A stretch of 63,911 bases of DNA, the filler included, from Kipferlia bialata (Eukaryota), in NCBI GenBank assembly GCA_003568945.1. It is 5 parts of 3 records of this genome, joined end to end, with 100 filler letters (N's around TTAATTAATTAA, not from the genome) between each part and the next. Parts side by side here need not be neighbours in the genome. Positions count along the whole stretch, not along the records: positions 1 to 16,876 come from BDIP01000101.1; 4 more parts are not named here. The stretch is one strand, 5' to 3'. The stretch's first letter is position 1. Every line of letters begins with the position of its first letter. This document shows, piece by piece, positions 2,598-54,040 of the stretch. The position numbers and the translations under genes are program-made. The notes below the pieces were generated by a model. That model made no database searches, was not told where the DNA came from, and saw only the letters and a program-made list of their open reading frames with translations.

Positions 2598-2724
2598 CTG
2601 GGGTCAGGGGGGGGGGGGGGGCTGGGGGTTTGTTGTTTTTTGTTGTGTTTTTCCCCCCCCCCCCCCCCCTCTCTTCTCATGTCTCTCTCTACACCCACTC
2701 CCTTTATCTCCATCTCACATCCAG

Positions 2725-2812
2725 GTAGCAAGGAGACACCAGAGGACCCATCGTTAGGTATCCTACATATATATATGTATACATATATATATATATATAA
2801 ATATATATATAT

Positions 2813-2847
<35 letters not shown>

Positions 2848-3416
2848 AGAGGACCTATCACAAGGTGTATATATATATCTCGGTCTGACACGATATTGAT
2901 ACAATTGAGCCACATTGATTCGTACTGACACGTCATCATGTGCCCATCGGTGTATCTCTCTCTCTCTCTTTCAGTGTTCTAATGAATAGGCAATACATCC
3001 TCTGCCACCTCTGATGATCTCCCTCTCTCTCTCTCTCTCTCCCTCTACACACTTATTGTCAGGCCAGATCCAGAGACACCTCTCTCTCTCTCTCTCTCTC
3101 TCTCCCTCTACACCCTTATTGTCAGGCCAGATCCAGAGGCAGACCCTGGCAGACCTCAGTCTGACAAACAGCCTAGGTATGTATTACTATATATGTGTAT
3201 ATATATTTGTGTATGTATAATATCATTGGCAAGTATGCCAATGAAGTAGTGAGTCTCTATCTATATGCACTAAACCCTTATATTCAGGCCAGTATGAGAG
3301 AGAGGCAGGTCTAGAGGGAGAGACTGAGAGTGAGAGAGAAGCAGAGAGAGAGAGAGACCTACAGATGGATGGGTACCTCAACATGGTCGGTACGTATCTC
3401 TGTCTCCCTCTACCGT

Positions 3417-3447
<31 letters not shown>

Positions 3448-6400
3448 CTACACGTTGTATATGTGTTAATCTATCTTACCTCAGACACTCTCTCCCCCTC
3501 CCAGCTGGCACTGTTTGAGCACCTCTCTGCGGTCTACATTCCCGCTAAGAAGGTATGGGTTCGAGCCCCGCTCCATCTACTTTTATCTGATACCAGGTCT
3601 ACCCTGAGGTTGGCAAGGATGCCCTATCTTCCATGTCTCTCTCCCTAGGAGAGAGAGAGGCAGAGGCAGAGGCAGAGAGACTGGAGCTGGAGAGAGAGGT
3701 ACCTAAATGTACATATATCGCAATTATATCCGTATATGCGTCCACATATATAAAATTGTATTTTTGTATATATACTAACTATATAGGTATACATAGAGAT
3801 AAATATAAAGATACTGGAGCTGGAGAGAGAGGTTCGATCTATTTGTGTATATATGTGTATGTCCGTATTTCTGTTATTCTCTCTCTTACCGGTCGAGATG
3901 TACCTCTTGTATGATTATGTATATATACTACTATACCTAACTCCTAGGAGAGAGAGAGTGCCCAGCTGGGTGAGGTGGAGTCCAGCATACAGCAGGACAT
4001 CGGGCAGATCAGGTATATATTTTGTTATTCTATATCATATTTTTTGTATGGTGACAAATTATTATTCATTAATAATATTTGTCTCATTCTATATATAATG
4101 ATGAGTCCAGCATACAGCAGGACATCGGGCAGATAAGGTATATATTGTATATATCCTCTATATAGGAATGTATGCAAGCATGTATATATTCTATATACTG
4201 TATTGTACTCACCCCAGGGCTGTGATTGAGTACCAGGAGGATATACTATATGGAACAAAAAGACTCTATAAACTATACATATACTATATACTGTATATAT
4301 ACTGTATATGTACAATACTATATATATGTACATGTATGTGTGTATATACTCACCCCAGGGCTGTGATTGAGCAGACTCACAAATACCATGGTATATATGC
4401 CATATATACTATATACTATATTTACTCTCTACTATATATACTGTATTATCCTCACCCCAGGGCTGTGATTGAGCAGACCGAGAAGGGAGGATATACTCCA
4501 TATTCTACATATACTATATATACTATATATATATATATATTTATATATATGTGTGTGTTATTCTCACCCCAGGGCTGTGATTGAGCAGACTGAGAAGGGA
4601 GGGGTGGTGCCAGAGGGGAATGAGGTGAGAGTGTATTATATGAATATATATATATATATAAATATGGTTGAATATATAAATATATATAAATATGGTATAT
4701 ACATGTAGATGTATATACCTTCATATGTGTTTTTGTGATATGGTATTGTATATGTATATATTATGGTATGAAAGTATTGAAGGGAGGGGTGGTGCCAGAG
4801 GGGAACGAGGTGAGTATATAATATATGTATTCATCTCTATGGTGTATATATATACATATATATACATATATACCTTCGTATATATTTGACAATTAGGACC
4901 TCCTCACCAACCTGGGACCCAAGCTGGATGCACAATATGTATATATATGCTATCATGTATTATACACCTCAACTGTTGTATTTTACCTTAGTATATACCA
5001 ATATACCTCTAATCCCTAGGACCTCCTCACCAACCTGGGACCCAAGCTGGATGCACTAGTGGCCATGCGAAAGGTATGTTTTGTACTTGCTATAAACACC
5101 ATTATCTAACATATACAGTATTGCTAAAGACATTGTATTGTGTTGGAATGTTTCCCTGTGTGAGTGTTCTATTTATTTGTGATTCATTACACCCCTAATC
5201 CCAGGCCGGTGTTGCTGCCCGTATCAGAGAGGAGCGCAAGAATGGACAGGTACTCTCTCTCTGTCTCTCTCTGTCTCTCTCACACACACACAACACGTTA
5301 ATATGTACACATATACACCTCTATATTGTTCTACTTTCTCTCCCTTATTCACTACCATCTTCTACACCCTTAATTCAGATGGACCGCAGACAGGCTCATG
5401 TGAACAGAGATATCGCCGACGGAGGTATGTGTCTATGTATATATATAGAGAGAGAGAATATATACACGTTGCACAGAATTATTAGGAATAATAATGATCA
5501 AATAGAAAGTAGAGGAGTGTGTATTATTATTCACCTGTGTAATAACCCCCAGCTGGCCACCACATGCTTGGCTTCCCCATGTCTATATCATAAATCATAT
5601 ATTTATAATGAGATATAGAAATCATTGGTCATTATAATAGTATGATACATGTAATTACTTCATATAACCTCAGCCGGCCACCACATGCTGGGCTTCCCCA
5701 TGTCCCCATACACCAGACAGGCATTCTCAGGGGAACTAGATGTACGGGTGCATGAATACATATACATGTATACATATACATATATATGTATTATTTATAT
5801 GTATTATTGGAGAGTGGTAATTATTCCTAGACCCTTACTTTTGTCCCCATGTCCCCATACAAGCATTCTCAGGGGAACTGGATGTACGTATGCTGTACAA
5901 TCTCTCTCTCTCACACACACCCACACACCCTTATTCTCAGGGTGTCCATGTTCTCTAAATAGATACAGCTTTCTCTCTCTCCCCTACACCCTTATTTCCA
6001 GGGTGCCCCTGTTCTCGATATAGCTGAGCAAGTGGTGCGTAAAGAGAGAGAGAGACAGAGCATGGAGAGACAGCTGGAGAGGCAGAGGCAGATGGGTGTC
6101 AGCATGCCCAGTCTGCATGACACCAATGCATGTGTGCTCACACCACCATTCCCTAAGTTGCTACTGGTACGTGTGTGAATAGTATATAATCTATAGTGTA
6201 TAGCATACTTCATAATATACATATATATATATATATATAATATGTGTGTCAGGATGCCCAGTCTGCATGACACCAATGCATGTGTACTCACACCCCCATT
6301 CCCTAAGCTGTTACTGGTGAGTCTGACATGTATATATGTATATATATGTATATATATATATCAATATATATATATATATTCAGTAATTGAGCCATCACAT

Positions 6401-7413
6401 ACACATGGGATCTCTGTCTATGCTTGTTTCTCTCTCTCTACACTTCTAGTCTTTAACTCTAGGCCAGGTGTCCCTGGATGTTTGCTCAGTGGTGGAAGGA
6501 GAGGTATGACGTTATGTATCTGTTTGCTGTATTTCCCTGTGGGCTAGGTGTTCATATATCCCAAGGAGCAGACACTCTGCCTCTATTGGCTGAATACTCT
6601 CTTTCGCGTTGATCTAGTTGATAAATGTATGTATACATTATTGGTGTATGTATGTACATCTATATACCTCACTCTTGGGAGCAGTCTTTCTGCCTGTACT
6701 GGCTGTATACTCTCTCTCAGTCAAATTGATTGTATATGTATATGTAGGATCGATTTGGGTATGAGTATGTATATACATGTATATATATACTGACCCTAGG
6801 GAGGAGTCTTTCTGCCTGTACTGGCTGAATGCCCCCAGAGAGGCAGCCATACAGATGGTCAAGGAGGTATTATTAATGTGTATGAATATTCATTATATAT
6901 CTGTCTCAATAGGGAGAGAGAGATAGAGAGATAGTCCCCAGTATATATGCATGTATATTTCTATATCTATATCCTCATTGCCAGGCTGTTCTGAACGTGT
7001 GTGCGTGCATCACGCCTCCATACCAGCATACAGTGACAGAGCCAGAGGCAGAGGGAGAGACAGAGACAGAGGCAGGAGAGAAGGAGGGAGAGACTCCTGC
7101 TGATGAGACTGAGGCTGGTAATAAGAGTGTAGAGGGAGAGGGAGAGAGAGAGACCGAGACTGTACAAGAGGAGGGCGAGGTTATTGAGACAGTCATTAGG
7201 GATAGGGGGATGGGAGAGAGAGAGACTGTCATTAGAGTGTGCGGGGGACTGCTACTGGCAACAGTCATGCAGGAGGTAAGTATAACTGTTGATATACCTA
7301 TAAGTCAATTATATGGGTGAAGTTTTCATATATATATAATATACATGTGTAATAGTTTGTATATATATGTCTATATTTTTACTGCTCCTGGCCACAGTCA
7401 TGCAGGAGGTGTG

Positions 7414-7469
<56 letters not shown>

Positions 7470-7750
7470 TACGCCCCTTATACCTAGGAGGACCGTCTTC
7501 TGCTACCGAGACTGATCAGGGCACTTGGATTCATGCTAGGTATATATAGTATAGTCAAATGAATATATATATATATATGTGTGTGTGTGTAGGTAGGGTA
7601 TATGTATGCATATATATATGTATAAATAGGTGAGTATATATATTAGTGTATCAATATACATTGACAATGTACACACCAGGCTTCATGCTAGGTATAGGTA
7701 CATGTGTTTTTATTGGGTTTTCTCTCACCCTAGACCCTTCCTCTGTCAAC

Positions 7751-7785
<35 letters not shown>

Positions 7786-10700
7786 CCTAGACCCTTCCTC
7801 TGTCAACCGGTGTATCTGCCAGTCAGAGCCAGAGATACTCTCTCCACCCACCCTCACCGACATGGATGAGGGAAATAGGGGTGTAGAAGGAGAGAGAGAG
7901 AGAGAGAGAGGCCCTGGTGATGATTCCCCTCTTGTTCCCCTAGTACCCACTTTTGTCAGAGACAATCACAGGATAATCAGCGATGCCTGCGCTCTGGTAA
8001 GTGATTTCTCTCTCTCTCTCTCTCTCTTAACCAATATATATATATATTTGGTTACATGTATATGTGTATATACTATTATACCCACCTTTGTCAGAGACAA
8101 CCACAGGATAATCAGTGATGCATGCGGTCTGGTATGTAAATTATGTATAATCTGTACTCTCGCTACACCTTCTATATATATGGATCATGACTCATGCAGG
8201 CGCATTGGTACGATTCTCCCTCTCTCTCTCTCTACACCCTTAATTCCAGGTCCTAGAGCCCCTTACTCTCTCCCTCTCCGACTCCATGTCTGATGATTCT
8301 CTCTCTCTCTCTACACCCTTAATACCAGGTCCTTGAGCCTCTGACCCTCTCCCTCTCCGACTCCATGTCTGATGAGATTCACGGACCCATGTACTACATG
8401 GAGATAGACCAGGCTATCAGGTAAAGATATATGTATATATATATAGGTAGAGAGAGAGAGAGAGAGATCTATGCACTACATGGAGATAAACCAGGCTGTG
8501 AGGTAGAGACTCCTGTTCTTTCTGTATATCTCCCTGTTTTTGGTATGTGTGCTATTAGTCGCTATTCATGTGTATAATAGCCTCGTTACTTGTATGACTC
8601 TCCTCACCCCAGATACCTCTATCTGTCTGTCCTGGAGATATGCTCCACATACGCACACTACACAGAGAGGTACGGGTATTTGTGCTTTCTGTATACTTTT
8701 GTTTGAGAAGGTATGTTCTTATGTTTCACAGAGAGGTTCGTGTATTAGTGGATATATTACTACTAGTATTCGACGGAGTCTGAAAGTCCTATTTCGAGAG
8801 GATGTCTGGATATATCTGATAAATGATCTAGTTATCAAGTATATAGTACTCATCTCTAGGGAGAGAGAGATATCCAGGCTGAAGTCCCAGGGCGAGTGCA
8901 TAGACCACCTGTACTACCACAGACCAGTGGACAAGGCTGAGGAGGGTATGTATAGTGTATATATACGAGTAGATAGTATTTATATGTGGTGTATATACAT
9001 ATACTACCACAGACCTGTGGACAAGGCCGATGAAGGTATGTCTCTCTCTCTCTCTCTCTCTCGCTCTCTCTCTCCTTCTACACCCTTAATCCCCAGATGA
9101 CACACCCAGTGTGTATGACCCCAGCACAACCCTTGACAGGTATGTGTACTCACATATATATTTATATATATATATATATTAATATATGTATAATGAGTCT
9201 ACAAATGTGGTATTAGTATAATAAACACACATTTGTACTATTATACATATATACCAGTGTGTTTGATCCCAACACAACCCTGGACAGGTATGAGGGCATT
9301 TACATCTATATATATCTTTGACTCTTTAGTATAAGTATATATATATAATAACAGACATATATAGTTTATCTTAACAATATCATGTGTGGGGCTTGGACTT
9401 TGGGCATAATGGCTCTTACCCCAGAATTATTGACTCCGCTGCAAAGCTGGGTCATACATATATATGTATAATTGATTAATATATATATTCATTTCAATAG
9501 ATAAGCAAAACTCTAATAGAATCCTTACCCAAGAATTATTGACTCCGCGGCCCTCACCAAGGGCCCAGCTGGCTCATATATACTATATATATACATATAT
9601 AAGTATATAAATAGTAATATATATAGATATTTGCATTAACACCAGGATCATTGACTCTGCTGCCCTCACTAAGGGCCCCGCTGGCTCATACATGCAAGAC
9701 AGGGAGAGAGAGACTGCCTTAGAGGGTGCAGCTGGGGAGACTGGAACGTCTAAAACTGGTGAAGATGCGGCTGAGACTGATGTACCCCCTGGAGCGTCTG
9801 AAGCGTCTGAAACGGCCAGCCATCACAGCCAGTACGAGGAGTGGGCTAAGAGAGAGAGGTGTGTTCAGTATGGCGTGTGGATATATTGCAATATGTGGAG
9901 AATAGGTGAGATGTGTATATTTAATACTGCAACTTATCTTCAGGGAGAGACTGCGTGAGCAAGAGAGAGAGAACCAGATCAACCCTGAGACTGAAGTCAT
10001 GATCACAGACACGGCGGAGGTATAATATAGTGTATATTTATTCATATATAGTGTGTATATGTTATAGTTAAGAGAGAGTGTGTTGTATATGTGTATAGTA
10101 TATAATAATTCCTTCCCTGAGACTGAGGTCATGATCACAGACACGGCAGAAGTGTGTATATGTATATATTATACTAAATTATTATAGTTGTTGTATTATG
10201 CATACATATATATATATATATTGGTATAGTATGATTCCTACCCTGACACTGAGGTCATGATCACAGACACAGCTGAGGTATACTCTCATATACATGCATG
10301 CATATATTCACACGGTATTTTTGGTATACCAGTATGTATATATCAATATATATACAGTTAGTATTTAGGTAGAGTGTATATATATACTCAGTGACTGAGC
10401 TCATGATCACAGACACAGCAGAGGTATGTTTACATACATTATGTCTGTATGTGTGTGAATACCCTGGATGTCATATGTATATTGTGATATGTATACACTT
10501 ATGGTCTCTCTCTTCACCCTTATGTCAGCCTGTCCCTGTTCTGCCCACCCATCTCTCTCTCTCTCTCTCTGTCTCTCTCTGTCTCTCTCTCTCTCTCTCT
10601 CTATCTATCTGCACCCTTATACCAGCCTGTCCCTGTTCTGCCCACCCTCCTAGACCACGAGAGACACAGTGATAAGGTATATATACAGTGTGTATGATGA

Positions 10701-11225
10701 ACGTCAGTGATATAGTTATATAGTACCCCATGTATATGCATCTCCTAGACCACGAGAGACACAGTGATAAGGTGTGTATGTATATATATATATAATAGTA
10801 TTGAATACTGTACGTATTTGTATATAATATTATATAATGTATGTATATATATGATGAACGCCACAGAGAGACACAGTGATAAGGTGTGTAATTGTATATT
10901 TGGGGTATATTTGGGGTATATACTGTGTTTATGTGTTGAAACCATAAAGACACCTTTATGTTGTTGAATTTTCTCTCCTCTCCTAACGTCAGCTCTTCTC
11001 GGCCGCTCTCTCCACCGAAGCCGTACACCCAACGGTTGATATCCCATACCACTCCGATATTGAGATTGAGGGAGATGGAGATATGGATGGAGAGACTCCA
11101 GAGGGGCCATTTAACACTGTGGTGGTGCCCGTTGACTTTAACGTCCCTGCCACTATCACTGGGCTGGCTGCCATCATGATCAGGGTATGGATACATATAT
11201 AGACACATGCATATAAATAAATACC

Positions 11226-11260
<35 letters not shown>

Positions 11261-11610
11261 CTTTAGAGAGATAGAGAGAGAGAGAGAGTAGTCTGCCACT
11301 ATCACAGGACTGGCTGCCATCATGATTAGGTGTGTAATAATATATATATATATATATATATATCCTAGTGGGAGAGCGACCTGCCATCATGATAAGGGTA
11401 AGTGTGCCATGTCCTACTGTCCCCGCGATTCTTTCTCTCTCTCTCCCTACACCCTTTTTCTCTCCCTCTACACCCTTTATCTCACCCCTAAACCCTAATT
11501 CTCACCCCCAGTCTGGCAGGGGTATCCCAGACCAGTACTACTCCAGAGGTGAGTCCAGTCTCTCTCTCTCTCTCTCNNNNNNNNNNNCAGTACTACTCCA
11601 GAGGTGAGTC

Positions 11611-11643
<33 letters not shown>

Positions 11644-12120
11644 ATAATAATAATCTATGTGTATCCCAGACCAGTACTACTCCAGAGGTGAGTGTACATA
11701 TGTGTGTGAATACCAATTGCTGCCGTTCTTTACATATCTATGTATGTCAATCTCTGTCTTTCTCTCCATATGTGTATTCATGCTCACGTACAGTCACCAC
11801 TGTTCCCCACCCCATGCCGGATAGAGTCCTAGTGCGTGCCAAGAACGTACCAAGGGTCATCTACAACGCATTCTTCGATAGAGCATCAGGCAACAGTGAC
11901 GTGGAAAGAGAGAGAGAGAGAGACACTGGAACCGGTGTCGTGCCAAGTATGTTCTTGCAGGTCATTGTGCAGCAGAGAACGGCTGAGACGTCTGAAGCGT
12001 CTGAGGCGTCAAAGTCGCTAGAGGGAGAGAGAGAGAGTGATACAGCTGTGTATCTGGAGCCAGTGGCACCCGTGGAGCAGGAGGTTACTGATGCTAGGTG
12101 TGTATATTTACCATATATGT

Positions 12121-12158
<38 letters not shown>

Positions 12159-14157
12159 TTGTATATGCTAAGGTGACAGATGCAAGGTGAATATATATGT
12201 ACTATATACTCAATATATATATGCATTTTATCATTATTGTTCCGTATACACTATATATATGAATATTAACTGACCCCAGTTCCCTGGACCATCTGCTGGG
12301 CCACCCAGACTGTATATATATATAGAGAGAGAGAGCGATGTGTATTTGTATATTACTATCGTACCATATAGTTATATTACAACACATATACTCACCCCAG
12401 TTCCCTTGACCATCTGCTGGGCCACCCGGACTCACTGCTACAGGTGGCACAGGTACGCAAGCCTTGTTTGTAATACTCCTATAGTTATATATATACTGTA
12501 CTCTGTATATGTATGGTGTATCCTGGATCACTGCTCCAGGGGGTGGATCTATACATGCACATATATAGCATTATATATACATAGAAATGGGCATACCCTG
12601 TCACTGCTACAGGTGGCACAGGTAAGGATTGAAGAAATATAGACAGTCTGTATGCAACAAGTATTCATACATGTACATACTTATTTCCATAATGGTATAC
12701 AATAGTTAATCTCTTCTTCTGTATTTCTTCTTGTTCCTCTCTATGTGTAATTACGTATGCTGACTGTCAGATTGTGATGCGTGCCCCTCTTTCCACCTGT
12801 GTAGACAGTGTCACACAGAGGTATGATATATATATAGGTGTGAATATGTATATATTGGTTTATAGACATTGACCTATATGTGTATTAATAGTGCCCCCCT
12901 GTCCACCTGTGCAGACAGTGTCACACAGAGGTATTGTCAGTGTTATGTTGTATATCTACTCTCAAGCAGCGTGTGGCGGGTGTAGTTTATGCAGAAAGAG
13001 TGTACTCTGAATATCTCACTCACTCACTTTCTCTCTCTATATATATACTCTCACGCTAGGCTAGCCACTCTGAAGCAGCGTGTGGGTGGTGTAGTGCAGA
13101 TTCCCTATTCCCTATGTTTATATATACTCTATACTATACATACATTGTATAACTAACCCAAGGCCTCCAGCCATCAAGCAGCGTGTGGCAGGTGTTGTCA
13201 AGGATGGAGAGTGTACTCTCATAGATATCTCACTCACTCACTGTCTCTCTCTATGTGTATGCACTAACACAAGGCCTCCAGCCATCAAGCAGCGTGTGGC
13301 AGGTGTTGTCAAGGAGGGAGAGGGAGAGGGAGAAGAGCCACAGAAGCAGGTCAAGGCAGAACTCGTGGATGACGTAAAGGTACTTATACTGTAGTATGTA
13401 CTGTAATGTATCTCAACATAGATATGCTATTCATTCTACTATTCATTCTACAAGTATTATTGTCCATATATATTGTGGAGAAGCCACAGAAGCAGGTCAA
13501 GGCGGAGCTCGTGGATGACGTAAAGGTATGAATAGTATATAGTAACTGTATATATACACATAGTATTGGTTATTTATTATTGTTACAGACACAATTATAT
13601 ATGTATTTGCATTGTGTATGAAGCAGGTCAAGGCAGAGCTGGTGGATGACGTCAAGGTACTGTCAGTCAAAAATATATATTATATTCTAGTGTATGTATA
13701 TACCTTACAATATTACAATTCCGGATGGTGTTAACGTATAATGTATATACATGGGTCAAGGCAGAGCTCGTGGATGATGTCAAGGTATGGCAGTTTTATA
13801 AATGTATGCATATGTATATATGTTACTATGAATATAGTGGAGTATGTTCATGTTTATATTCTTGATTGTGTATGTATATAGTGGATACCTGGGACAGGTC
13901 AATGCAGAGCTCGTAAATAGGGGTGTAGTCGTGGATGATGTAAAGGTATAGATTGTAACAGTTTTACCAGATTACCATCATGCTCCTTGTGACATCTATG
14001 CTTGTACTGTATTCATAATAATATATATACATATCTTATAATACAATATTATATTGCAATCATTACAATCATTATTGCATATGTGAATGATGCTCCTGAT
14101 GATTGATGTACATGTGTATGGAGCTTCTATACCTTCATGTGCTGTTAAATATATAAT

Positions 14158-14214
<57 letters not shown>

Positions 14215-16633
14215 ATCAGTATAGGTATGACTCTCATGCCAGAATGCCTTCATGCGCTTTGCCAAGAGGAGGGGGTACATCCAGGAGGAGACTGAGGTAT
14301 GTATATGGTATTCATAAGGAGAGTATATATATGTGTGTGTGTTATATATGGACACACATACGTGTGTGCATGTAGATATATATGTATTTATGTAGGAGAG
14401 GATAGATCCAGGAGGAGACTGAGGTGTGTACTTCTACAAATTTATGTATAGTGATATGGGTGTAAATACCGTTATGTTATATACTGATAGGAGGCTCAGT
14501 ACTTGTACTCTTCAATATTCTTACACCCAGGAGCCAGAGACAGAAGTTGAGAACGGAGGGGAGACCAAGGAGGGAGAGGGAGAGGGTAAGGAGGTGGATA
14601 CTGTCGCAGAGAGTGCTGATACAGCCGTAGAGACACAGGGAGAGACAGAGACAGAGACAGAGAGAGAGACTAAGGAGGAGAAGGTTGATGCAGCCTCCAG
14701 TGATGCATCTGCACCTGCCTCCAAGCCCACCATCTTCGATGCCGCACGTGCAGCCGATGATAGTGCAGCTGCTACTGCCGTTACTTCCAAGGCCGGGGCT
14801 CCCTCCATCTTTGACGCTGCACGTGCCGCTGACTCAGCTAGTGCTGCTAGTGCTAGCGGTGCTAGTAAGGCCCCTGCTAGCACTACATCTACCCCCTCTA
14901 TCTTTGCTGCTGCACGTGCCGCAGATGCTACTGCAGCTACTACTCAGGCAGAGGCCCCAGCTAGTGCTGCGTCTACACCCTCAATATTCAGTCAGGCCAG
15001 GGCCGCAGATGCTGCTGGTTCTACCGCTAGTAAGGCAGACGCTCCCGCTAGTACCCCCTCCATCTTCAGTCAAGCTCAGTCAAGCTCAGTTAAGCTCAGT
15101 CAAGCTAGGGCCGCAGATACTAATGCCGCTGCCGCTGCTACTACTGTTGCCAATACTGGTGTAGCACCATCTACGGCCTCCCTCCCTACGACTACCCCCA
15201 CCCCCCCACCCCACCCCACCTTCTCCGTCCCCTCTCCCTTTGTGTACTATAGAGGGGTCAGGGAGAGAGAGAGAGAGAGACAGGCAGCAAAGAGAGAGGC
15301 AGGGGGAGAGAGTGCTACTGCTACCCGGGAGGAGCCCAAGTACATACCCTTCTCTTACGACACTCTGCTGGCCAACCTCATCAGGTATTATAGTATATAT
15401 ACAGTTTATATACAAATATCCTTCTCGCTCCATGACTGATATACCCGCAGAGACAGTATTTCTCTCTCTATGTATATATTTATGTATGTGTGTATGTACA
15501 CATGTATGTATCATACTGTAGTGACTGCTATGGCCCTGTGGACAAGGATCCCACGTCATAACATGTATAGTGGTATTCCATTGTCCATTGTATATTCATA
15601 TATATTCATAAATATATATTACTCTAACTGTAGTGACTGCTATGGCCCCAGGGACAAGGATCCCAATGCTGTGTCTGTGGCATCACTAGATAGAGTGAGC
15701 CTGGAGGACCTGGCAGGTATGTGTATGTATTGTATCTATATTCATTTACGCACATGTATATATGTATATATATGTGTCTATAATCACTGGACAGAGTGAG
15801 CCTGTAGGATGTGGCAGGTACTTAAACATATAGATATAAGTACATACCATTATATGCCATATATTTCTATACTTATTTCTATATGTATGGACGGCAGCTT
15901 GAGTCCTCAAAACCGTACGCCTATGGTTCTCTATTCTCTCTCTCTCCCTCTATCCCACACCCACTCTCTCCCTTTACCCCACCTATACTTACCTCCTGGC
16001 CCCCTCTCCTCTGTGTCTGTGTACTCACAGATTCTCTCTCTCTCTCTCTCTTTCTCTCTCTCCCTGTTATACTAACTTGTAGGCCCCCTATCTCATGTGT
16101 CTGTGTACTCACAGATTCTCTCTCTCTCTCTCTCTCCCTCCCTCCCTACCTTACTCCTAGGCCCCCTCTCCCATGTATCTGTGTCACTTGGCCTAACAGA
16201 GGAGAGACTTAACGAGAGGGCTAGAGACAGGTATATAATAATACACTAACATACATATATACTCAAGTTTGGAAAGTGTATTTGTATATATATACATATA
16301 TGTGGAGGGATGGGGATTAAACGAGAGGGCAAGGGATAGGTATGTCTATTACGTATCTATGCTTCTGGTTGTTGGGGGCTTGCAATCAGCAATGTGGTCC
16401 AGAGAGAAGTAAGGCTGAGTGCTCTCTCTCAGACTCACCCTCAGTATTCTCTCCCGTCCTGGCAGGGTCAACAAGAGTCAAGTCAAGGGGTCTCCAGCAG
16501 TCAACAAGGGCCTCCCTGAGTCACCTGGGGTCAAGGCCACTGCTCCCGGGTCCGAGGGGGAGAGAGAGAGAGAGAAGAAGCGGGAGAGAGACTCCTACTG
16601 TGTCTCTGGGATGGGGGCACTCCCTCTCTACAG
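2725..16633 (+). CDS. Large hypothetical protein, ~35 exons, incomplete at both ends
   Basis: Consecutive GT-AG exons join in frame, e.g. GQIQRQTLADLSLTNSL / ERESAQLGEVESSIQQDIGQIR / AVIEQTEKGGVVPEGNE / DLLTNLGPKLDALVAMRK / ARCPWMFAQWWKER / EESFCLYWLNAPREAAIQMVKE / IIDSAALTKGPAGSY / PPAIKQRVAGVVKEGEGEGEEPQKQVKAELVDDVK / NAFMRFAKRRGYIQEETE. No family recognised; it runs off the contig end. Confidence 0.75.
4208..4811 (+). repeat. Intronic echo copies of exon 4573-4624 (three acceptor echoes, one donor echo)
   Basis: ctcaccccag|ggctgtgattgag at 4208, 4349, 4451 and 4563 (functional); gaagggaggggtggtgccagaggggaaYgag|gtgag ending at 4624 (functional) and 4809. Confidence 0.9.
9985..10425 (+). 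repeat. Donor echoes of the exon ending ...PETEVMITDTAE
   Basis: actgaRStcatgatcacagacacRgcNgaR|gt at ~9990 (functional), ~10120, ~10247 and ~10394, separated by TA-rich spacers. Confidence 0.9.
12963..13947 (+). repeat. Echo array around exon 13274-13379 (three upstream, four downstream copies)
   Basis: aagcagcgtgtgg at ~12964, ~13073, ~13176 and in the exon; gtcaaggcRgaRctSgtggatgaYgtMaag|gta ending at 13379 (functional), 13525, 13656 and 13784, plus an interrupted copy ending ~13945. Confidence 0.9.
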
Positions 16634-16707: not shown

Positions 16708-16829
16708 GTATAAATATACATATATTTATATATATATGGGATGCGGGCACTCCCTCTGTACATGTATCCGTCTCATACATAATTGGTGCAGTACTTGACG
16801 CATATCCCAGCTCTCTCTCTCTCTCTTTC

Positions 16830-16876: not shown

Positions 16877-16976
16877 NNNNNNNNNNNNNNNNNNNNNNNN
16901 NNNNNNNNNNNNNNNNNNNNTTAATTAATTAANNNNNNNNNNNNNNNNNNNNNNNNNNNNNNNNNNNNNNNNNNNN
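16877..16976. other. Artificial contig linker (N44-TTAATTAATTAA-N44)
   Basis: The same six-frame-stop linker flanked by Ns occurs four times in the window. Confidence 0.95.
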
Positions 16977-23786: not shown

Positions 23787-29878
<6,092 letters not shown>

Positions 29879-30394: not shown

Positions 30395-30494
30395 NNNNNN
30401 NNNNNNNNNNNNNNNNNNNNNNNNNNNNNNNNNNNNNNTTAATTAATTAANNNNNNNNNNNNNNNNNNNNNNNNNNNNNNNNNNNNNNNNNNNN
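30395..30494. other. Artificial contig linker
   Basis: N44-TTAATTAATTAA-N44. Confidence 0.95.
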
Positions 30495-43190: not shown

Positions 43191-43290
43191 NNNNNNNNNN
43201 NNNNNNNNNNNNNNNNNNNNNNNNNNNNNNNNNNTTAATTAATTAANNNNNNNNNNNNNNNNNNNNNNNNNNNNNNNNNNNNNNNNNNNN
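43191..43290. other. Artificial contig linker
   Basis: N44-TTAATTAATTAA-N44. Confidence 0.95.
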
Positions 43291-45242: not shown

Positions 45243-45818
45243 ATGGCTAAGCGGAGTCGCTACAGAAACCAGAGCAAGGTTTACTCCGAGCCAAAGACCC
45301 CTTTTGGCCGTGAGCGCCTTGACGCTGAGCTCAAGCTTTGTGGAGAGTTCGGACTCCGCTGTAAGCGTGAGATCTGGAGAAGCCAGTTCACCCTGCGTAA
45401 GATCAGGGCTACTGCTCGGTCTCTACTTGCTCTTGATGAGAAGGACCCTCGCCGTATGTTTGAGGGCGAGGCTCTCCTTCGTAGGATGCACCGCAGTGGT
45501 ATCCTTGCCGATGAGAAGGACAGGCTCGATTACGTGCTGACACTCACCGTTGAGGACCTCCTCAACCGTAGGCTGCAGTCTGTTATCCTGGCCAAGGGCA
45601 TGGCCTCCTCTGTTCACCACGCTCGTGTTCTGATCCGCCAGGGTCACATCCGTGTTGGTGGCCAGGTTGTCAATGCTCCCTCTTTCCTTGTCCGCACTGA
45701 GTCGGAGAAGTTCATTGACTTCGCCGAGACATCAGCATTTGGCAAGGGCCGTCCCGGTCGTCTTGCACGTGCCAAGGCTCGTGTTAGCTCTGCCACGGCT
45801 CCCGAGGAGGAGTTTTAA
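45243..45818 (+). CDS. RPS9: 40S ribosomal protein S9 (uS4), intronless
   Basis: [46 protein letters not shown]...LDYVLTL...RRLQS...[29 protein letters not shown]. Confidence 0.97.
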
Positions 45819-46266: not shown

Positions 46267-46539
46267 ATGGCTAAGTCTAAGAACGGAACGGCCCGTCACG
46301 AGGAGAAGAAGAACCACCGCAATGGAATCAAGAAGGCTAGGGTTCACCGTTACGGATCCACCAAGGGTGTACGTTATCTCAATCTCTTCTTGCTGTTTCT
46401 CCCTGCTTTTGTGTCCTTCTTTCCTTCTGTGTGTGTCTTTGTCGCTTTGATCTCACCGTAGGTCGACGCCAAGCTCCTTCGCAACATGAAGTTCGCTCGC
46501 AAGCACGACCCCGCCCAGAACCGCCTCCTCAAGGCTTAA
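46267..46539 (+). CDS. RPL29: 60S ribosomal protein L29 (eL29), intron 46369-46461
   Basis: MAKSKNGTARHEEKKNHRNGIKKARVHRYGSTKG|VDAKLLRNMKFARKHDPAQNRLLKA*. Confidence 0.95.
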
Positions 46540-46938: not shown

Positions 46939-47844
46939 TCAAACAATCATCTTCTCGAAGTTGGAGGACCCGACTCGTATGTGCCTGGCCGGTCTGCCTC
47001 CCTTCGGTGTCACCTGCGCCATGAGCCACCGGAATGCGTAGTAGATGCTGTGACCTGGGATGAGACTTGGCAAACAAGCTGTCAAATCATGGGGAGTGTA
47101 TGTATATATAGATATACACACGGGTGTATGTGTATATATATATTCATACCTGTAAGGGCAGATACCCGGAGAACACGGAAGGGGCGGTGGTGGGTTAGTG
47201 GCCCGTCAAGTGAAAAGTACTCGACAACAGTCTCAAAACGTGCACAGGTATCTATGGTTGGTAACAGGGAACAGAGTGGGAGGCCAACTGCTACTGTATC
47301 TACTCACCTAAGTCGCACTTGTTGATCAGGAAGAGCACTGGGGTGTTGGCGGTGGCTAGGGTTAGAGGCCAGCTTGTGGAGAGAGTGTGCTATCTGTCTA
47401 AATATCTATCTATCTATCTATCCATCCGCAACACCATACCTTCGTCCTGCATGACCTGGGTGAAGTGTCGCCGGGCCTCAGCGAAGGAGGAGGCATCGGC
47501 ACCATCAATGATAAACACAATGGTCTGATGTGAGTGACATGGGAAGGAGTACATATATACATATATATATACTTATTCAGATTAGCAGTGCACGTACCGT
47601 TGCCGTGGCATATTGCACACTCCACTGCTTCCTGTAGCTGCTCTGCCCACCCATGTCGAAGATGGTGGTCTAGGATGAGAGAGGGGGGGGGGGAGAGAGA
47701 GGGAGTGTGTGTGTGAGAGAGAGAGACAAGATGTCGAAGATGGTGGTCTAGGATGGAGAGAGAGACATGGGCAGAGTGCTCATACCTGGGGATATATACG
47801 TAGAGAGGGAAAGAGAGAGACAAGATGTGGAATATGGTCGTCTG

Positions 47845-47876
<32 letters not shown>

Positions 47877-48692
47877 AGATGTCGAAGATGTCAGGGTGAG
47901 AGACACAATACACATGAATTGGAGCAGTGTCCTCAGTGCTGGCTCAATCACCCTATATATAACTATAGTATACTGCATTATAGACTATAGTATAGACCAT
48001 ACCTTGTATCCAAACATGCTGATGTGTCCGATGTTCTGCCCAATGGTTGGGGTGAGGAGGGAGTCGTCAGGATGGCCTGGGTGAGAGATGAATGAGTCAG
48101 TATCACTGGTGAGGGTCACTCAAACACAGCCACAGGTGGTTCCACAAGAATAGCCTCTATACACACAGACACATATGAGCCGGCCACAGCGCCATATACA
48201 GACTTACAGTGCGTTCCATATACCACAGTGCAACATACCTGGGTGGGATGACACAGCCCCAGGTACATGCATCAATATATTATATATAGTATATGTATAT
48301 ATGCATATAGTATATCAACTCAGTACCCCTATGCAACATACCTGGGTGGGATGACACGTCCAGCTCCTGCCTGGGGTCAGATTGGTGTATCAGTATCAGT
48401 ATCAGTATCAAGAATGAGGTTGGCAGGATCAGATTGGTGTTTCATGGACGAAGTTGATGCAATTGTATACGATGGAAAACCATAACCGGAGAGAGCCAGA
48501 GCACACACCACGCAACAAAACATCCACACACCTTGTAACAATGCTCATGATCCGGGTCATCGTTGTGGTCTTACCGCTGTTCTGAAGACCTGAGGTGAGA
48601 TTGGTACTGGATACAAAATAGTATACAATCCATCACTCACCCAGTATTACAACATTGGCCTTCTTCCCGATGCACCCACAGAAGTTTCCCAT
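46939..48692 (-). CDS. Arf-like small GTPase (9 exons)
   Basis: MGNFCGCIG...ILGLQNSGKTT (G1), PTIGQN (G2), IFDMGGQSSYRKQW (G3), IVFIIDGAD, LFLINKCDL (G4), SALTG (G5), AFRWL. Confidence 0.9.
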
Positions 48693-49103: not shown

Positions 49104-52100
49104 ATGCTGCTAGAATCACCGAGGCCAGTATTGCCTCAATGCAACGGACGAAACGCCCGATTCCAAAAAGGTTCGGTGTGCACTGGGTTATTGACTTTCT
49201 ACCCTGCTCTTCACCCAGTGACTCCTGCCTCTCCCCCGGTAGAGGGCACTGATGCATCTGAAGTGCCCTATATGCGGTGTAGGTGGGTGTATGGATTATA
49301 TGATAGGTCTGCCAGTAGTGGTGGTATCAGTATCAGAGTATTAGATACTGATACTGATAGTGGTGTATACACGGCATCACACTCTCTCCTCTGCTAAATC
49401 TTTGTCTCTCCACTATATGCTGTCTGAATACACGGGTTAGACATCCTCTGTGAACCCCTCTTACAGATATAACCCCCCCCCTCCCCCCTGCTCTCTCTCT
49501 CTCTCTCTCTCTCCCTCCCCCCCCCCCCCCCCCCCCCTTATTCCAGATGTTGATAGAGTAGTGGCTGGTCCCCACCACATGTTCTACAGATGCACTGTCA
49601 GACAGGCAGAGGCAGAGGCAGAGGCAGAGGCAGAGGCAGAGAGTGGAGTCGACACCCCCTCCAGTCACCTCTGGTTCTGTGCCGGACTCAACGCCACAGG
49701 GCAGCTGGGACTAGGTATACATATATATATATATGGGTATATGTATGAACAGACAGACTCAACGCCAGGGCAGCTGGGACTAGGTATATATATGAATATA
49801 TATGGGTATATATATATGAACAGGCAGACTCAACGCCACAGGGCAGCTGGGACTAGGTACACTATATGCTGAGTGTTCTAATACTTCCCCCATGCCCTGC
49901 CTCAGTCCAGATAATGTGTAATATCTATGTAGATGAATATGTACACATATATGGACATCCGTACTTATACTGCCACTGACCCAGGTCCCTCCTCTGCCCC
50001 GATAGTGTCTGAGCCCACCTTCCAGCCCACGCTGTCTCTGGAGTGCCCCCTGGCCCTTTCCCTGGGGGCAACGCACTCACTATGCATATCAGGTACACAC
50101 TCACTATGCATATCAGGTGCACATATAGGGTTACATATACACCCAACCCCCCCCCCCCCCCAATGCCAGGTGAGACTACCGCCCCCGCACCTGATGTGTC
50201 GGGTGAGGATGCCAACACGTCCACCCCTGCCAGGCACAGGGTGTATGTGTGTGGCAACAATGACTACGGGCAGCTCAGCACAGAGCCCAGGTATCGTGTC
50301 ACTATATATATCCATTGGTGACACATGTTTGTGTATGTATATCCCCACCCCTAATGACTACGGGCAGCTCACCACAGAGCCGAGGTATTGTATCGACGTA
50401 TTTTCACTAATAACCCATATATCTATGTATATACCTGTCCCACCCCAGGCCTGAGCGTCTGAGGACACCCAAGCACAAGAGACAGAGACAGAGGGAGAGG
50501 AGGAGGGAGAGAGAGAGAGAGAGAGGGTCCACCCCAAGAGGTGTCACCAGCAGTAGGCTCTCCCACAGCACCCCTGTCACACCCAGTGGTATTGAGGGCG
50601 CAGAGGGAGAGAGGTCAGGGAGAGGGACAGTGGCCTTTGTGAACCCTTTATCCACCAGACAGGGGGGTCAGAGAGAGAGAGACAGGGTCAGAGAGTCTGG
50701 TCTGGCCAGGTCTAGACTGGGTGTATCTGCTGTGACAGTGAGTGACAGTCCGTCCACCCCTGGGACGGGGGAAGGGGTAGAGAGGGAGGGGGAGGGGCTG
50801 AGTGTGACACCCAGTGCCAAGACTCATGATGCTCTCTCTCTGTCTAAGGGGGTGGAGGTATCAGGAGGCGACACGCCGAGAGAGAGAGAGAAGGCCCCCC
50901 GTATCAACACCCGTGTCAACATCACCCCTGGGTTTGATGCCCACCCCCTGCTGTCCCTGTCACCCCACACAAGGCTATACGCCTCGTGGCACTCAAACAT
51001 AGCAGTGTCAGGTGGGTGTCAGTATGTATACGAGAGGTGTATCGTGGTATATGTTGGGACCTCTGAGCACTAAGTCCTGTATGGCATATTAGTGTTCTTC
51101 TCCCAATAATAGTTCCAGCTGGGTATCATGGTACAGTATACGTGTGTTTGTACCAGGGTATGTATATATTGATGTGAATCACTTGTTTCCTTTTGTCTAT
51201 GACCCCAGGCCCCTCCCTTACCATGTCATGTGGGGCAGATGGCACAGTGTCTATAGGGTCTGGACCGTGCATGGTCAACAAGGTGGGGGGTGGTATGTGT
51301 ATGTGTATGTGTATAGCATATGATGGTATGGTGATACTGACACTGACACTGATTCATGTGCAACAAGGTGGAGGGCTGTCATGTTGCATTCTATGACACA
51401 GGTTGTCTTAGAATGCTATGAAGTTCAATTCATACAGAGTACAAAGATACCCTGACCCCAGCTCTTCTTCTGGGGCAGGACCAGCTGCATCAGGGGCATG
51501 CCTAGGGGGCACAGGTGAGAAATGTATCTGAATGTGTGTATTGGTGTATATATATATAGGTGTGTGTGTGTGGCTATCCAGCTGCATCAGGGGCATGCCT
51601 AGGGGGCACAGGTGAGTATATTATATGATGCTTGACTTTATATCACACTCTATTAGCCAAGGGGACACAGGTGATGTATCGGTAAGAGTCTATCTAAAAT
51701 ATGATATCTCTTACCTACACTTGTACTTTGAGTTGGATTCCACTCCTCTGTATCACTCCCTCCCACCCCTCACCCACAGATACCTCTCTGCGCCAACTAT
51801 GATTGAAACAGACAGGATGGTAGAGACAGAGGCCGAGGCCCCTACCACCGGTGGGGAGTGCCCGCTTGTGGAGCATGTGGCCCTGGGCAGATACATAGTG
51901 TGCATAGTCATAGGGGGGAAGGTGGGTGCAGAGGGGTATACTGTATATACTGTGTAGTGAATACTAATACATATGTATACTGATGCAGATGTATAGTGTG
52001 TATGTGGTGTGGCTGATGAGGGGTGTAGGGGCATTGTATGTGTGAATACGTATTCCACTTGACTGACCCCCCAGGCCTATGTAGCTGAGTACCAAGAGGA

Positions 52101-54040
52101 GAGGGAGAGAGAGGCAGATGCTGAGGCAACCCCCCTCTCCCCACTCTCCCCACTCTCCCCTGCGTCTCCCACTAGTGACACTAACAATGTCACTGACAAT
52201 GGTGACCCTGTGGGTGAGAGGGAGAGAGAGAGAGAGGGTGCCTCACAGACAGAGACCCCTAGGGCCAGGAGGGCCAAGAGAGGTGGTGCTGTGTACCTAG
52301 TGCCCTTTACATCAGACACGGGGGAAGGGGTGCACGGGGTGGTGCAGGTGGGTGTTGTATATCATTATTGCCAGACATACATTGTCCCCATAGAGATGGT
52401 GTATGACCAGTATCCATAGTACTTCACTATCCTCTGTTAGACCTGGGTCCCTGCCTATGGGTAGAGTATCAGGATGTATAGTGTCTATATATAGTGTTTT
52501 ACCATTGTTTCCATGTATACACCCCTGACCCAGGTCTCTGCGTCCTGTTCGGGTGACCACCACCTACTGCTGTTCACAATGGCAGATGGGTCTACTAGAT
52601 GCTACAGGTAGATCTACATGCATAACAAATACATATATATGTATAAAGATCGGGTACGTGTATATATATACATGGATGGATTGGTCCACTAGATGCTACA
52701 GGTACATGTGTGTGTGTATTGATCGGTATCTATGCCTATACCCTCTGACCCCCAGGTGTGACAAGGACTGTCTCCCTGTGGAGGACATGTCTCTGATACC
52801 ACAGTCCCTATGTCTACCCAGCCCATACCCTAGCACAGACACAGCACTTAGGGGACTAGGGGGTGCCTATGCCACCGCCACCCACATATGCATGTGGAGG
52901 GGAGGGGTGTCTGGGGTAGAGACTGTACACACACGGCAGAAGGGAGAGGGAGAGACTGAGAGCCTTGCGTCCCTTGCACTCAGTGGCCCTGTGGTCACAC
53001 CCCATACAGACACAGTGCCTGCAGAGACACTACATGGTGGAGAGGAGGACATGCCTGTGGCAGTCACTGATGCTGATACTGGGACTGGTGCTCCATCCTC
53101 TGCTGTTGACACTGTTGCCACGGGTGGAGATGAGGGGGTACATGCAGTTCTTGAGGCAGAGAGACGGGAGAGAGAGAGGGAGAGACAGGAGTTGATGGCT
53201 GAGCAGGCCAGGATGGAGGGTGTGATAGGGACATTGGAGAGTGATGTACAGACACTGAGGGAGGAGAGAGAGAGAGAGAGAGAGAGCGCCGAGGGTGTCC
53301 TTTCCACCCACAAGGCCCTTCTAGCGGAGAGAGAGGGAGAGAGAGATGCCGCCCTGGCTGAGCTTGAGATGATTAAGGGTGCAGTGGAAGAGATGGAGGC
53401 ACGGGTTGAGAGGGAGAGGGAGATGGAGAGGGAGGAGAGAGAGACAAGGGAGAGAGAGATGGGAGAGGAGCGGGAGGAGTGGGAGAGAAAGACTAGGGAG
53501 ATGGAGAGGGAAGCGCAAGAGAGAGAGAGAGAGCTCGAGGCTGAGAGACAGCGCCTGGCTGATGTCACTTCACAGCTACGGATAGAGGCCTCTGCCTATG
53601 AAAGAGAGGTTGCATCTCTGACCCAGAGAGAGAGAGAGGCGTCACAGGAGTTGGCTGTACTGAGAGAGAAGGTGGAGGCAGAGAGACAGAGGGGGAGAGA
53701 GAGAGAGGCCTTGGCTGCAGAGTCACAGAGACAGAGCGTAGAGGACGCACTGAAGAGAGAGAGGGAGCAGAGAGAGAAAGAGACGGACCTGCAGCGCCTG
53801 CAGAGCATGTGCTTCCCGTCTCCCCCTCTCCCCCTACCCCCTGTAACCGAGAGTCAGGGTGGGTCAGCCCCTCCCTCTGTGTCCCTCTCTCTCTCTCTCT
53901 CCTCTGCCCTAGAGGGCGATGTGTACCAGGGCAGCACACCCATCCTGGCCCAGGTGCAGAGGGCCCTAGACAGGAGTGGGGAGATGACACTGCGCATGAT
54001 GGGACACGCCCCTATGGATAGCTACCTCGACATGCTATGA
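49104..54040 (+). CDS. RCC1-repeat protein with long C-terminal Glu/Arg coiled coil
   Basis: VAGPHHMF...CAGLNATGQLGLG; LSLGATHSL; VYVCGNNDYGQL (RCC1 signatures). The last exon is a long ER-rich coiled coil ending DSYLDML* at 54040. The start codon is tentative. Confidence 0.7.

What the first reader, a model, noticed from the sequence alone, without database searches (positions are those of the whole stretch)
3060..16340. Intronic 'echo' copies of exon ends that differ almost only at synonymous sites
Seen: most introns of the 14-kb gene contain 15-65-nt copies of the adjacent exon end together with its splice site, set in unrelated TA/CT-rich spacer. Read in the exon's frame, the differences are almost all silent. 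Echo 9534-9579 vs exon start 9646: 7 of 7 synonymous. Echo 6254-6316 vs exon end 6104-6166: 4 of 4, including two first-position Leu swaps (TTG/CTG, CTA/TTA). Echo 8250-8296 vs 8329: 4 of 4. Echo ~8080-8131: 4 synonymous, 1 Ala/Gly. Echoes at 7382 and 12281: 2 of 2 each. By-eye tally over 15 echoes is about 42 synonymous versus about 3 replacement changes; these are not fully independent and I chose the alignment ends by eye. Neutrally decaying copies should show mostly replacement changes. Yet each echo has only one splice site, so canonical splicing cannot translate it. Inference: the echoes exchange sequence with the coding exon (deletion or unequal crossover between the direct repeats, gene conversion, or template switching), or they were captured from divergent alleles. 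Either would be a splice-junction turnover or cassette system that I do not recognise as described.
Basis: partly seen in the sequence, partly recalled or inferred. Interest (0 to 1): 0.92.

Follow-up and report, generated by a model that had tools for sequence, protein, structure and literature searches.

The report
Intronic exon echoes from other alleles
In the free-living flagellate Kipferlia bialata, most introns of one gene carry short copies of the neighbouring exon end with its splice site; the copies differ from the exon mostly at silent sites, were skipped in the one transcript tested, and are likely scars left when DNA repair joined in the exon end and intron of a very different allele.

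Summary
A codon-blind census finds 47 echoes in 26 of 34 introns of a Kipferlia bialata gene (KIPB_000813), none on the wrong side. They carry 76 silent and 40 replacement differences; 0-fold/4-fold divergence is 0.16 (bootstrap 0.07-0.30). Neutral decay predicts 0.5-1, and simulated conversion with the echo's own exon gave 0.35-1.0. In the 872 bases tested, DNA contigs link echo and exon at ordinary depth with no second allele, and an RNA contig uses exon letters and skips the echoes. Three echoes carry stops. So the echoes are likely untranslated copies of exon ends that were functional in other, diverged haplotypes. A paralog pair shows one spacer is a truncated real intron, followed by the echo and an unrelated intron body. 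Best model (0.55): break repair between highly diverged alleles, finished by end joining, leaves two exon-end/intron versions in tandem; only one-splice-site products survive. No second allele or strain was found, so the donor is inferred, and the source of new intron bodies is unexplained. If right, one genome records outcrossing, about 20% silent diversity and wholesale intron replacement in a fornicate.

The parts
2725..16633 (+). Host gene KIPB_000813 (35-exon model; the NCBI protein P0001 continues downstream); no Pfam family
   Evidence: junctions of four exons seen in an RNA contig
2840..2864 (+). weak donor echo of exon 2725-2757 (1 silent, 4 replacement)
3018..3078 (+). acceptor echo of exon 3126; here the intron flank is duplicated too (plain tandem type)
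3809..3831 (+). donor echo of exon end 3698 (0 silent, 1 replacement)
4103..4137 (+). donor echo of exon end 4012 (1 silent)
4218..4490 (+). array of three acceptor echoes (4218-4230, 4359-4377, 4461-4490) of exon start 4573
4779..4809 (+). donor echo of exon end 4624 (1 silent)
4897..4933 (+). acceptor echo of exon 5020: 37 nt identical, different branch-point/AG flank
5553..5583 (+). acceptor echo of exon 5674 (2 silent)
5844..5883 (+). donor echo of exon end 5741 with a 7-nt frameshifting deletion
5941..5962 (+). decayed acceptor echo of exon 6002 (4 replacement changes, one stop)
6242..6316 (+). longest echo (75 nt), donor echo of exon end 6166 (4 silent, 2 replacement)
6565..6708 (+). two acceptor echoes (6565-6595, 6678-6708) of exon 6800, both with damaged AG
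7381..7408 (+). donor echo of exon end 7275 (2 silent)
7734..7760 (+). acceptor echo of exon 7791 (3 replacement)
8079..8131 (+). donor echo of exon end 7996 (4 silent, 1 Ala/Gly); the RNA contig carries the exon letters
8250..8296 (+). acceptor echo of exon 8329 (4 silent); skipped in the RNA contig, linked to the real acceptor by a DNA contig
8471..8502 (+). donor echo of exon end 8420 (4 replacement); skipped in the RNA contig
9002..9035 (+). donor echo of exon end 8945 (3 silent, 1 Glu/Asp)
9254..9287 (+). donor echo of exon end 9139 (2 silent, 2 conservative)
9425..9581 (+). acceptor echoes of exon 9646: 9534-9581 (7 of 7 silent) and a shorter one at 9425
10115..10423 (+). array of three donor echoes of exon end 10019
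10529..10883 (+). acceptor echo 10529-10550 and donor echoes 10742-10771, 10866-10883 of exon 10626-10676 (all identical to the exon)
11293..11397 (+). two donor echoes of exon end 11184 (4 silent)
11661..11687 (+). donor echo of exon end 11548 (the copy at 11588-11603 beside the N gap is probably a scaffolding duplicate and was dropped)
12280..12311 (+). acceptor echo of exon 12401 (2 silent)
12601..12621 (+). donor echo of exon end 12452
12891..12930 (+). donor echo of exon end 12820 (2 silent, 1 replacement)
12958..13211 (+). acceptor echoes of exon 13274: near-identical 13163-13211, and a deeply diverged one at 13060 with conservative changes (Ile/Leu, Ala/Gly, Lys/Gln), below the census threshold
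13482..13945 (+). array of four donor echoes of exon end 13379 (9 silent, 0 replacement; the last has an 18-nt insert)
14394..14423 (+). donor echo of exon end 14296 (2 silent, 1 stop)
15522..15817 (+). acceptor echo 15522-15553 and donor echo 15783-15817 (with a stop) of exon 15634-15716
15999..16339 (+). acceptor echoes 15999-16022, 16083-16106 and donor echo 16320-16339 of exon 16161-16230
16738..16763 (+). donor echo of exon end 16633
25103..25653 (+). two echoes in an ABC-transporter gene (25103-25127, 25624-25653); 2 of 36 introns
47731..48254 (-). echoes in an ARF-like GTPase gene (47731-47747, 48239-48254)
49766..52701 (+). six donor echoes in an RCC1-like gene; 5 of 9 introns
54629..57380 (-). 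four echoes in a minus-strand gene; 4 of 8 introns
62111..62325 (+). test case: intron 3 of a RING-finger-like paralog = truncated intron homologous to the other paralog's intron 3 (62116-62180, 53 of 65 identical) + echo 62186-62203 + unrelated intron body

Best explanation
The echoes are 13-75-nt copies of an exon end with one splice site, skipped in the one transcript tested, and they are likely untranslated scars of DNA break repair between highly diverged alleles. Inferred steps: Kipferlia alleles match in their short exons (about 20% different at silent sites) but often carry unrelated intron bodies. After a break, one end copies the other allele across an exon/intron junction for roughly 120 nt, or two homologues break at offset points. 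The ends are then end-joined instead of annealed. The product is exon end + part of intron A + second exon end + intron B, or the mirror image at acceptors. Both exon ends were coding until the event, hence the silent bias; afterwards the echo decays neutrally. Products that include both splice sites of an exon would be purged. Splicing uses the site nearest the exon. Unequal crossover between echo and exon among alleles would expand or delete arrays.
For: Shown: 0-fold/4-fold ratio 0.16 (0.07-0.30), below the 0.5 expected if only the exon were constrained (p=4e-7) and below all 18 conversion simulations (0.35-1.0). Echo-versus-echo differences are also silent-biased (7/249 vs 18/59), so there are more than two source versions. 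The silent rate is uniform across echoes (chi2 44, df 45), while the replacement rate is clumped (p=4e-5) and uncorrelated with it: a constant allelic part plus patchy decay. Silent changes are GC/AT-balanced (38 vs 33). No echo exceeds 80% of its exon; steps between splice-site copies are 57-185 nt, median 121. Echo splice signals score like real ones and above random intronic GT/AG (p<=1e-7), yet donor flanks lose homology to their own exon's flank after about +8. Paralog test: the spacer is a truncated genuine intron and the part after the echo is unrelated. The RNA contig skips the echoes; no second allele in DNA contigs over the bins covered. Known biology: metamonads lack Ku-type end joining, alternative end joining is fully or partly present, and fornicates have Dmc1 but no Rad51A (PMC8516963, section 8); DMC1 is mismatch-tolerant (PMC7809202, listing); aborted SDSA finished by alternative end joining (PMC8951532, passages); inter-homolog end joining at meiotic hotspots (bioRxiv 2020.06.23.168138, passages).
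Against: No donor allele was seen: one protein hit with one member, none among shorter proteins, nothing in metagenomes. About 20% silent diversity and outcrossing are assumed, not measured. The paralog pair shows introns stay alignable (58 of 62, 53 of 65 identical) at 10/27 four-fold divergence, so gradual drift does not make introns unrelated; the model needs wholesale intron replacement and does not explain where new intron bodies come from. The narrow step size and the lack of spacers under 30 nt in this gene are not predicted. 5 of 76 same-intron segment pairs are clearly homologous, and same-intron segments are slightly more alike than others (p=0.0006), so some arrays are plain or unequal-crossover duplications. 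Inner echoes are longer (8 of 11 successive pairs, 2 ties) but outer ones are not more decayed (0.034 vs 0.031), so the order of events is unsettled. Whether K. bialata itself has the alternative end-joining genes is in a supplement I did not read.
Confidence: 0.55

Rival explanations
1. Ordinary same-chromosome tandem duplications across the junction, later refreshed: unequal crossover or conversion with diverged alleles swaps the exon end, the echo and the intron behind it. It also needs hyperdiverse alleles, but echoes are born without a homologue.
For: Some units duplicate the intron flank too (3018-3078, 49766-49856, 50095-50116, repeated spacers at 12990/13210). In-frame coding repeats with 75-93-nt steps in exon 14531-15384 suggest a general short-duplication process.
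Against: 71 of 76 same-intron segment pairs are no more alike than the 99th percentile of unrelated pairs. Refreshing predicts more replacement changes far from the splice site; none seen (12/404 vs 16/425, p=0.57; low power).
Confidence: 0.17
2. The echoes are functional cassettes, brought into the reading frame by programmed DNA deletion between the direct repeats or by non-canonical RNA joining, perhaps in another life stage, so protein-level selection acts on them (as with ciliate paralogous MDSs).
For: Ratio 0.16 and conservative amino-acid changes; regular spacing; intact splice signals (27 of 28 GT, 15 of 18 AG).
Against: The RNA contig carries exon letters only, and no DNA joint matches an exon-to-echo deletion in 872 bases (contigs drop rare forms). 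Stops in 3 of 46 echoes, one frameshift, 20 of 46 with replacement changes. No benefit is evident in silent cassettes.
Confidence: 0.1
3. Gene conversion between each echo and its own exon, filtered by selection on the exon, produces the silent bias.
For: Short direct repeats 60-190 nt apart are natural conversion substrates; 8 of 46 echoes are identical to the exon.
Against: 18 simulated runs gave ratios of 0.35-1.0, above the observed 0.07-0.30; about 8-9 identical echoes are expected by chance at the uniform silent rate; it does not explain unrelated spacers.
Confidence: 0.05
4. Assembly artefact: haplotypes or strains concatenated.
For: Draft assembly with N gaps; one copy (11588-11631) sits beside an 11-N gap with an identical intron flank. 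Run X1 may be the source data.
Against: 92% of 914 sampled 31-mers lie in X1's independently assembled contigs. One 104-nt contig joins echo 8250-8296 to the real acceptor, and one 624-nt contig joins echo 8477-8502 to two exons, at depth 400-457 like neighbouring contigs; no other letters. A spacer running into mid-exon exists in no normal allele.
Confidence: 0.04
5. A dedicated intron-replacement system (a mobile or host process aimed at splice junctions) inserts an exon end plus a new intron body from another locus version at a fixed scale of about 120 nt.
For: All-or-none intron replacement between paralogs; narrow step size; a CT-rich acceptor motif shared by many loci (table 7).
Against: No element ends or shared body among spacers; selection against two-site products explains junction bias without targeting.
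Confidence: 0.09

Closest known systems
Human F7 intron 7 37-bp VNTR (splice-junction minisatellite; PMC1557585, abstract read)
   Same: A repeat whose first unit spans the exon-intron boundary leaves intact but silent pseudo donor sites; the most upstream donor is used.
   Different: There the units are head-to-tail copies including the intron part. Here spacers are mostly unrelated, both donors and acceptors are echoed, it affects 26 of 34 introns of one gene and four of the other genes modelled, and differences are codon-patterned.
Repair-mediated duplication by SDSA (PMC2671141, abstract); aborted SDSA plus alternative end joining (PMC8951532, passages); inter-homolog end joining at meiotic double cuts (bioRxiv 10.1101/2020.06.23.168138, passages)
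   Same: Short, closely linked duplications from imperfect break repair, which can include splice sites or join DNA of two homologues.
   Different: Those are rare, scattered events between near-identical templates. Here the inferred templates differ by about 20% at silent sites and carry different intron bodies, and the products accumulate at most junctions of a gene.
Paralogous MDSs of scrambled ciliate genomes (PMC9797194, passages)
   Same: Partial copies of coding segments lie next to the used copy in non-coding DNA.
   Different: Ciliate copies are alternatively built into a somatic genome by programmed rearrangement; here no echo-derived RNA or deletion product was seen and no such programme is known to me in fornicates (recalled).
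Intron gain by tandem duplication of an AGGT site (PMC3265369, passages) and tandem exon duplication
   Same: Intragenic duplication around a splice signal.
   Different: No new intron or exon is made: each echo has one splice site, covers at most 80% of the exon, and lies inside an existing intron.

Membership tests
Splice-junction minisatellite (F7 IVS7 type) | first unit spans an exon-intron boundary | tested here: met
   46 of 1035 correct-side splice dinucleotides vs 0 of 1052 wrong-side
Splice-junction minisatellite (F7 IVS7 type) | head-to-tail units that repeat the intron part as well | tested here: not met
   donor flanks at background identity beyond +8; only 5 of 76 same-intron segment pairs homologous
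Splice-junction minisatellite (F7 IVS7 type) | pseudo-sites are intact but silent | tested here: met
   scores like real sites; skipped by the RNA contig in the one 872-base region tested
Splice-junction minisatellite (F7 IVS7 type) | copy-number polymorphism among individuals | not testable with these tools
   no second strain found
Repair-mediated duplication (SDSA or inter-homolog end joining) | short duplication closely linked to its source | tested here: met
   13-75 nt copies, 57-185 nt steps
Repair-mediated duplication (SDSA or inter-homolog end joining) | junction microhomology or filler relative to the template | not testable with these tools
   the template allele is not available
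Repair-mediated duplication (SDSA or inter-homolog end joining) | the two copies come from different homologues | tested here: inconclusive
   inferred from ratio 0.16 and two intron versions in tandem; no allele observed
Ciliate paralogous MDS / alternative DNA processing | the paralogous copy is built into the expressed product | tested here: inconclusive
   not seen in contigs of one region; contigs drop rare forms
Ciliate paralogous MDS / alternative DNA processing | programmed germline-to-soma rearrangement | not tested
   no data
Tandem (mutually exclusive) exon duplication | whole exon copied with both splice sites | tested here: not met
   largest echo is 80% of its exon, one site each
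Intron gain by AGGT tandem duplication | the duplicated GT and AG become the ends of a new intron | tested here: not met
   echoes lie inside introns that are removed from the real donor to the real acceptor

The most novel reading that the evidence does not exclude
Kipferlia has a junction-directed intron-replacement system: exon ends act as landing pads through which whole intron bodies are swapped between alleles at a fixed scale of about 120 nt, the echoes being displaced former exon ends that remain recruitable into the gene by programmed deletion in another life stage.
Probability: 0.12. Interest if true: 0.93.

Novelty: new variant of a known kind. Interest (0 to 1): 0.78.

Why it matters
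If the allele-capture reading holds, each echo is a sample of another haplotype stored in one genome. That would give evidence of recombination between unrelated individuals and an estimate of silent diversity near 0.2 in a free-living fornicate, a group where sex is an open question (recalled), and it can be measured genome-wide without new sampling. It also points to a mode of intron evolution in which position is kept while the body is replaced all-or-none. The arrays are a natural test of how a reduced spliceosome (87 of 174 proteins, PMC6679479, passages) ignores decoy donors and acceptors as strong as the real ones. They mislead gene prediction too: the NCBI protein P0001 begins by reading through an echo. 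Ten literature searches returned no description of this in Kipferlia or another protist; the library lacks most subscription journals.

Tried and rejected
No whole genome is held, so nothing is genome-wide: five genes plus one paralog pair in 64 kb. Reads could be laid on only 872 bases, and on contigs, which drop rare variants; the rest of the gene is untested for RNA use. The run search listed no holder on record as RNA; X2 is RNA by the tool's guess, though its contig joins model exons at GT-AG junctions, and its 0.18 word share matches the 0.182 expected from exons alone. Relatives: none in metagenomes by protein or by acceptor motif; no shorter homologues; no Pfam family; no look-alike notes in the scan by place. 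Rejected: an 8-nt micro-exon at 8200-8207 (breaks the frame; skipped by RNA); recursive AG|GT splicing as the cause (28 of 34 exons end in AG, but it explains neither codon bias nor acceptor echoes); target-site duplication with new filler (in the paralog case the spacer is the old intron); conversion with the echo's own exon; a decay gradient along echoes (not seen). Rows dropped: echo 11588-11603 (beside the N gap). In one search two exons of the minus-strand gene were read in the wrong frame; corrected. Ungapped endpoints cut two echoes at indels, and one or two counted differences at 5855 are artefacts of that. Supplementary Data 2 of PMC8516963 (repair genes per species) and the genome paper's supplements were not read and may bear on the mechanism and novelty claims.

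Full report
Setting. The window is a draft eukaryotic assembly with N-linked pieces. Exon 6002-6166 matches one protein at 100%, KIPB_000813 of the free-living fornicate Kipferlia bialata. My hand-built model has 35 GT-AG exons at 2725-16633 and 1371 codons without a stop; 1349 consecutive residues equal that protein. It has no Pfam family. No whole genome is held.

Observation. Each exon end was aligned, without gaps and blind to codons, to every position of the flanking introns. There are 47 echoes in 26 of 34 introns, donor echoes always downstream and acceptor echoes always upstream, none on the wrong side; the 19 hits in 646,272 non-adjacent positions all come from GA-repeat exon starts. 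An endpoint-free test agrees: 46 of 1035 correct-side sites, 0 of 1052 wrong-side, 12 of 33,681 elsewhere, with ratios of 0.14-0.25 across four thresholds. After dropping one copy beside an N gap, 0-fold sites differ at 29 of 919 and 4-fold sites at 47 of 232: ratio 0.156; nearest echoes only 0.16, bootstrap 0.07-0.30. Four other genes have 14 echoes in 13 of 61 introns, ratio 0.28, p=0.006, so the pattern is general but uneven: 2 of 36 introns in the ABC transporter gene, whose introns are short.

Is it an artefact? Run X1 holds 92% of 914 sampled words. On 8079-8950 a 104-nt DNA contig joins echo 8250-8296 to the real acceptor, and a 624-nt contig joins echo 8477-8502 to the next two exons, at depths of 400-457 like neighbouring contigs, with no other letters in the bins covered (24 of 30) and no joint matching an exon-to-echo deletion. 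X1 may be the source data, and these are contigs, not long reads.

Are the echoes used? One X2 contig (RNA by the tool's guess) carries the exon's letters where laid on echo 8079-8130, then runs 8328-8417, 8610-8667 and 8858-8945 with no differences and continues into exon 9097. It skips the echoes. X2's word share, 0.18, equals the exon-only expectation of 0.182. Three of 46 echoes carry stops, one a 7-nt frameshift, and 20 have replacement changes. They look untranslated; rare or stage-specific use is not excluded.

Anatomy. Echoes are 13-75 nt (median 31), never more than 80% of the exon, only weakly related to exon length; successive splice-site copies are 57-185 nt apart (median 121, sd 28); 27 of 28 keep GT and 15 of 18 keep AG. 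Spacers are 30-154 nt. Scored with matrices trained on two other genes, echo splice signals equal real ones and exceed random intronic GT/AG. Donor flanks resemble their own exon's flank only to about +8; acceptor flanks share the branch-point region and sometimes more. Only 5 of 76 same-intron segment pairs are clearly homologous.

What gives the silent bias? A copy decaying beside a constrained exon gives a ratio of 0.5; the data reject that (p=4e-7). Conversion between echo and exon in either or both directions gave 0.35-1.0 in 18 simulated runs. So both copies must have been coding during most of their divergence. Echoes of one exon also differ from each other mostly silently (7/249 vs 18/59), the silent rate is uniform across echoes and the replacement rate is clumped and uncorrelated with it. 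That is the pattern of draws from a pool of diverged alleles, followed by patchy decay (inference).

A natural control. Two RING-finger-like paralogs (60162 and 61679) differ at 10 of 27 four-fold sites in exons 1-3. Intron 1 is 58/62 identical and intron 2 is unrelated. In the second copy, intron 3 is the first 65 nt of the other copy's intron 3 (53/65 identical), then an echo of its own exon end, then an unrelated body. So a spacer is a truncated real intron, and intron bodies change all-or-none. This also counts against the simple idea that allelic introns drift apart gradually, and it leaves the source of new bodies unexplained. It is one case.

Mechanism. Most likely (0.55): break repair between diverged alleles that share only exon islands, ended by end joining, leaves two exon-end/intron versions in tandem; products with both splice sites of an exon are purged. 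The repair steps are inferred. They rest on known pathways (aborted SDSA with alternative end joining, PMC8951532 passages; inter-homolog joining, bioRxiv 2020.06.23.168138 passages; repair-mediated duplication, PMC2671141 abstract) and on the reported fornicate toolkit: no Ku, no Rad51A, two Dmc1 paralogs (PMC8516963 section 8), DMC1 being mismatch-tolerant (PMC7809202, search listing). Against it: no second allele or strain was found, the narrow step size is not predicted, and a minority of units are plain tandem copies. Rivals: same-chromosome duplication refreshed by allelic recombination (0.17), functional cassettes (0.10), a dedicated intron-replacement system (0.09), own-exon conversion (0.05), artefact (0.04).

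Comparison and novelty. The nearest known structure is the F7 intron 7 minisatellite, with silent pseudo-donors (PMC1557585, abstract; lead from scan note e1-7810567), but the head-to-tail criterion fails here. Ciliate paralogous MDSs (PMC9797194, passages) and intron gain by duplication (PMC3265369, passages) do not fit as memberships. The passages and section of the K. bialata genome paper that I saw report 124,912 GT-AG introns and do not mention such repeats (PMC5874029). Ten searches found no description. I rate it a new variant of known repair-derived duplication, interest 0.78, because the pattern is strong, survives artefact tests, and makes recombination, diversity and intron turnover in a fornicate testable from one genome.

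Noticed in passing
window 60162-61006 and 61679-62576: Tandem RING-finger-like paralogs: exons 1-3 close, exon 4 far apart; intron 1 conserved, intron 2 wholly replaced, intron 3 half shared with an echo at the switch point.
   Followed up: yes
window 3095-3125, 5360-5378, 5986-6001, 8220-8249, 8299-8328, 9066-9096, 10604-10625: Many introns end in the same CT-run + ACACCCTTA..CAG motif, and many other loci in run X1 share it; intron 3' ends may be copied between loci. No match in metagenomes.
   Followed up: partly
window 14726-15056: In-frame P[ST]IF repeats inside the 854-nt exon with steps of 75, 93, 84 and 78 nt, close to the echo step size.
   Followed up: partly
window 12990-13059 and 13208-13273: Two homologous spacers, one followed by a deeply diverged echo and one by the real exon; suggests unequal crossover between different alleles.
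   Followed up: partly
window 11533-11631: 44-nt exact duplicate across an 11-N gap, probably a scaffolding artefact.
   Followed up: yes
window 16877-16976, 30395-30494, 43191-43290, 59085-59184: Artificial linkers (44 N, a 12-nt all-frame stop spacer, 44 N) join the pieces of the window.
   Followed up: no
window 2600-2725: A minus-strand acceptor and a plus-strand acceptor face away from each other across G and C runs with no room for first exons; possible mis-join. The NCBI protein starts by reading through the echo at 3018-3078.
   Followed up: no
window 23908-29878: ABC transporter gene with 35 or more short introns (median 67 nt) and only 2 echoes; echo density goes with long, AT-rich introns.
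   Followed up: partly
window 45243-45818 and 46268-46539: Ribosomal protein genes by recalled resemblance (S9-like without intron; L29-like with one intron); not checked.
   Followed up: no
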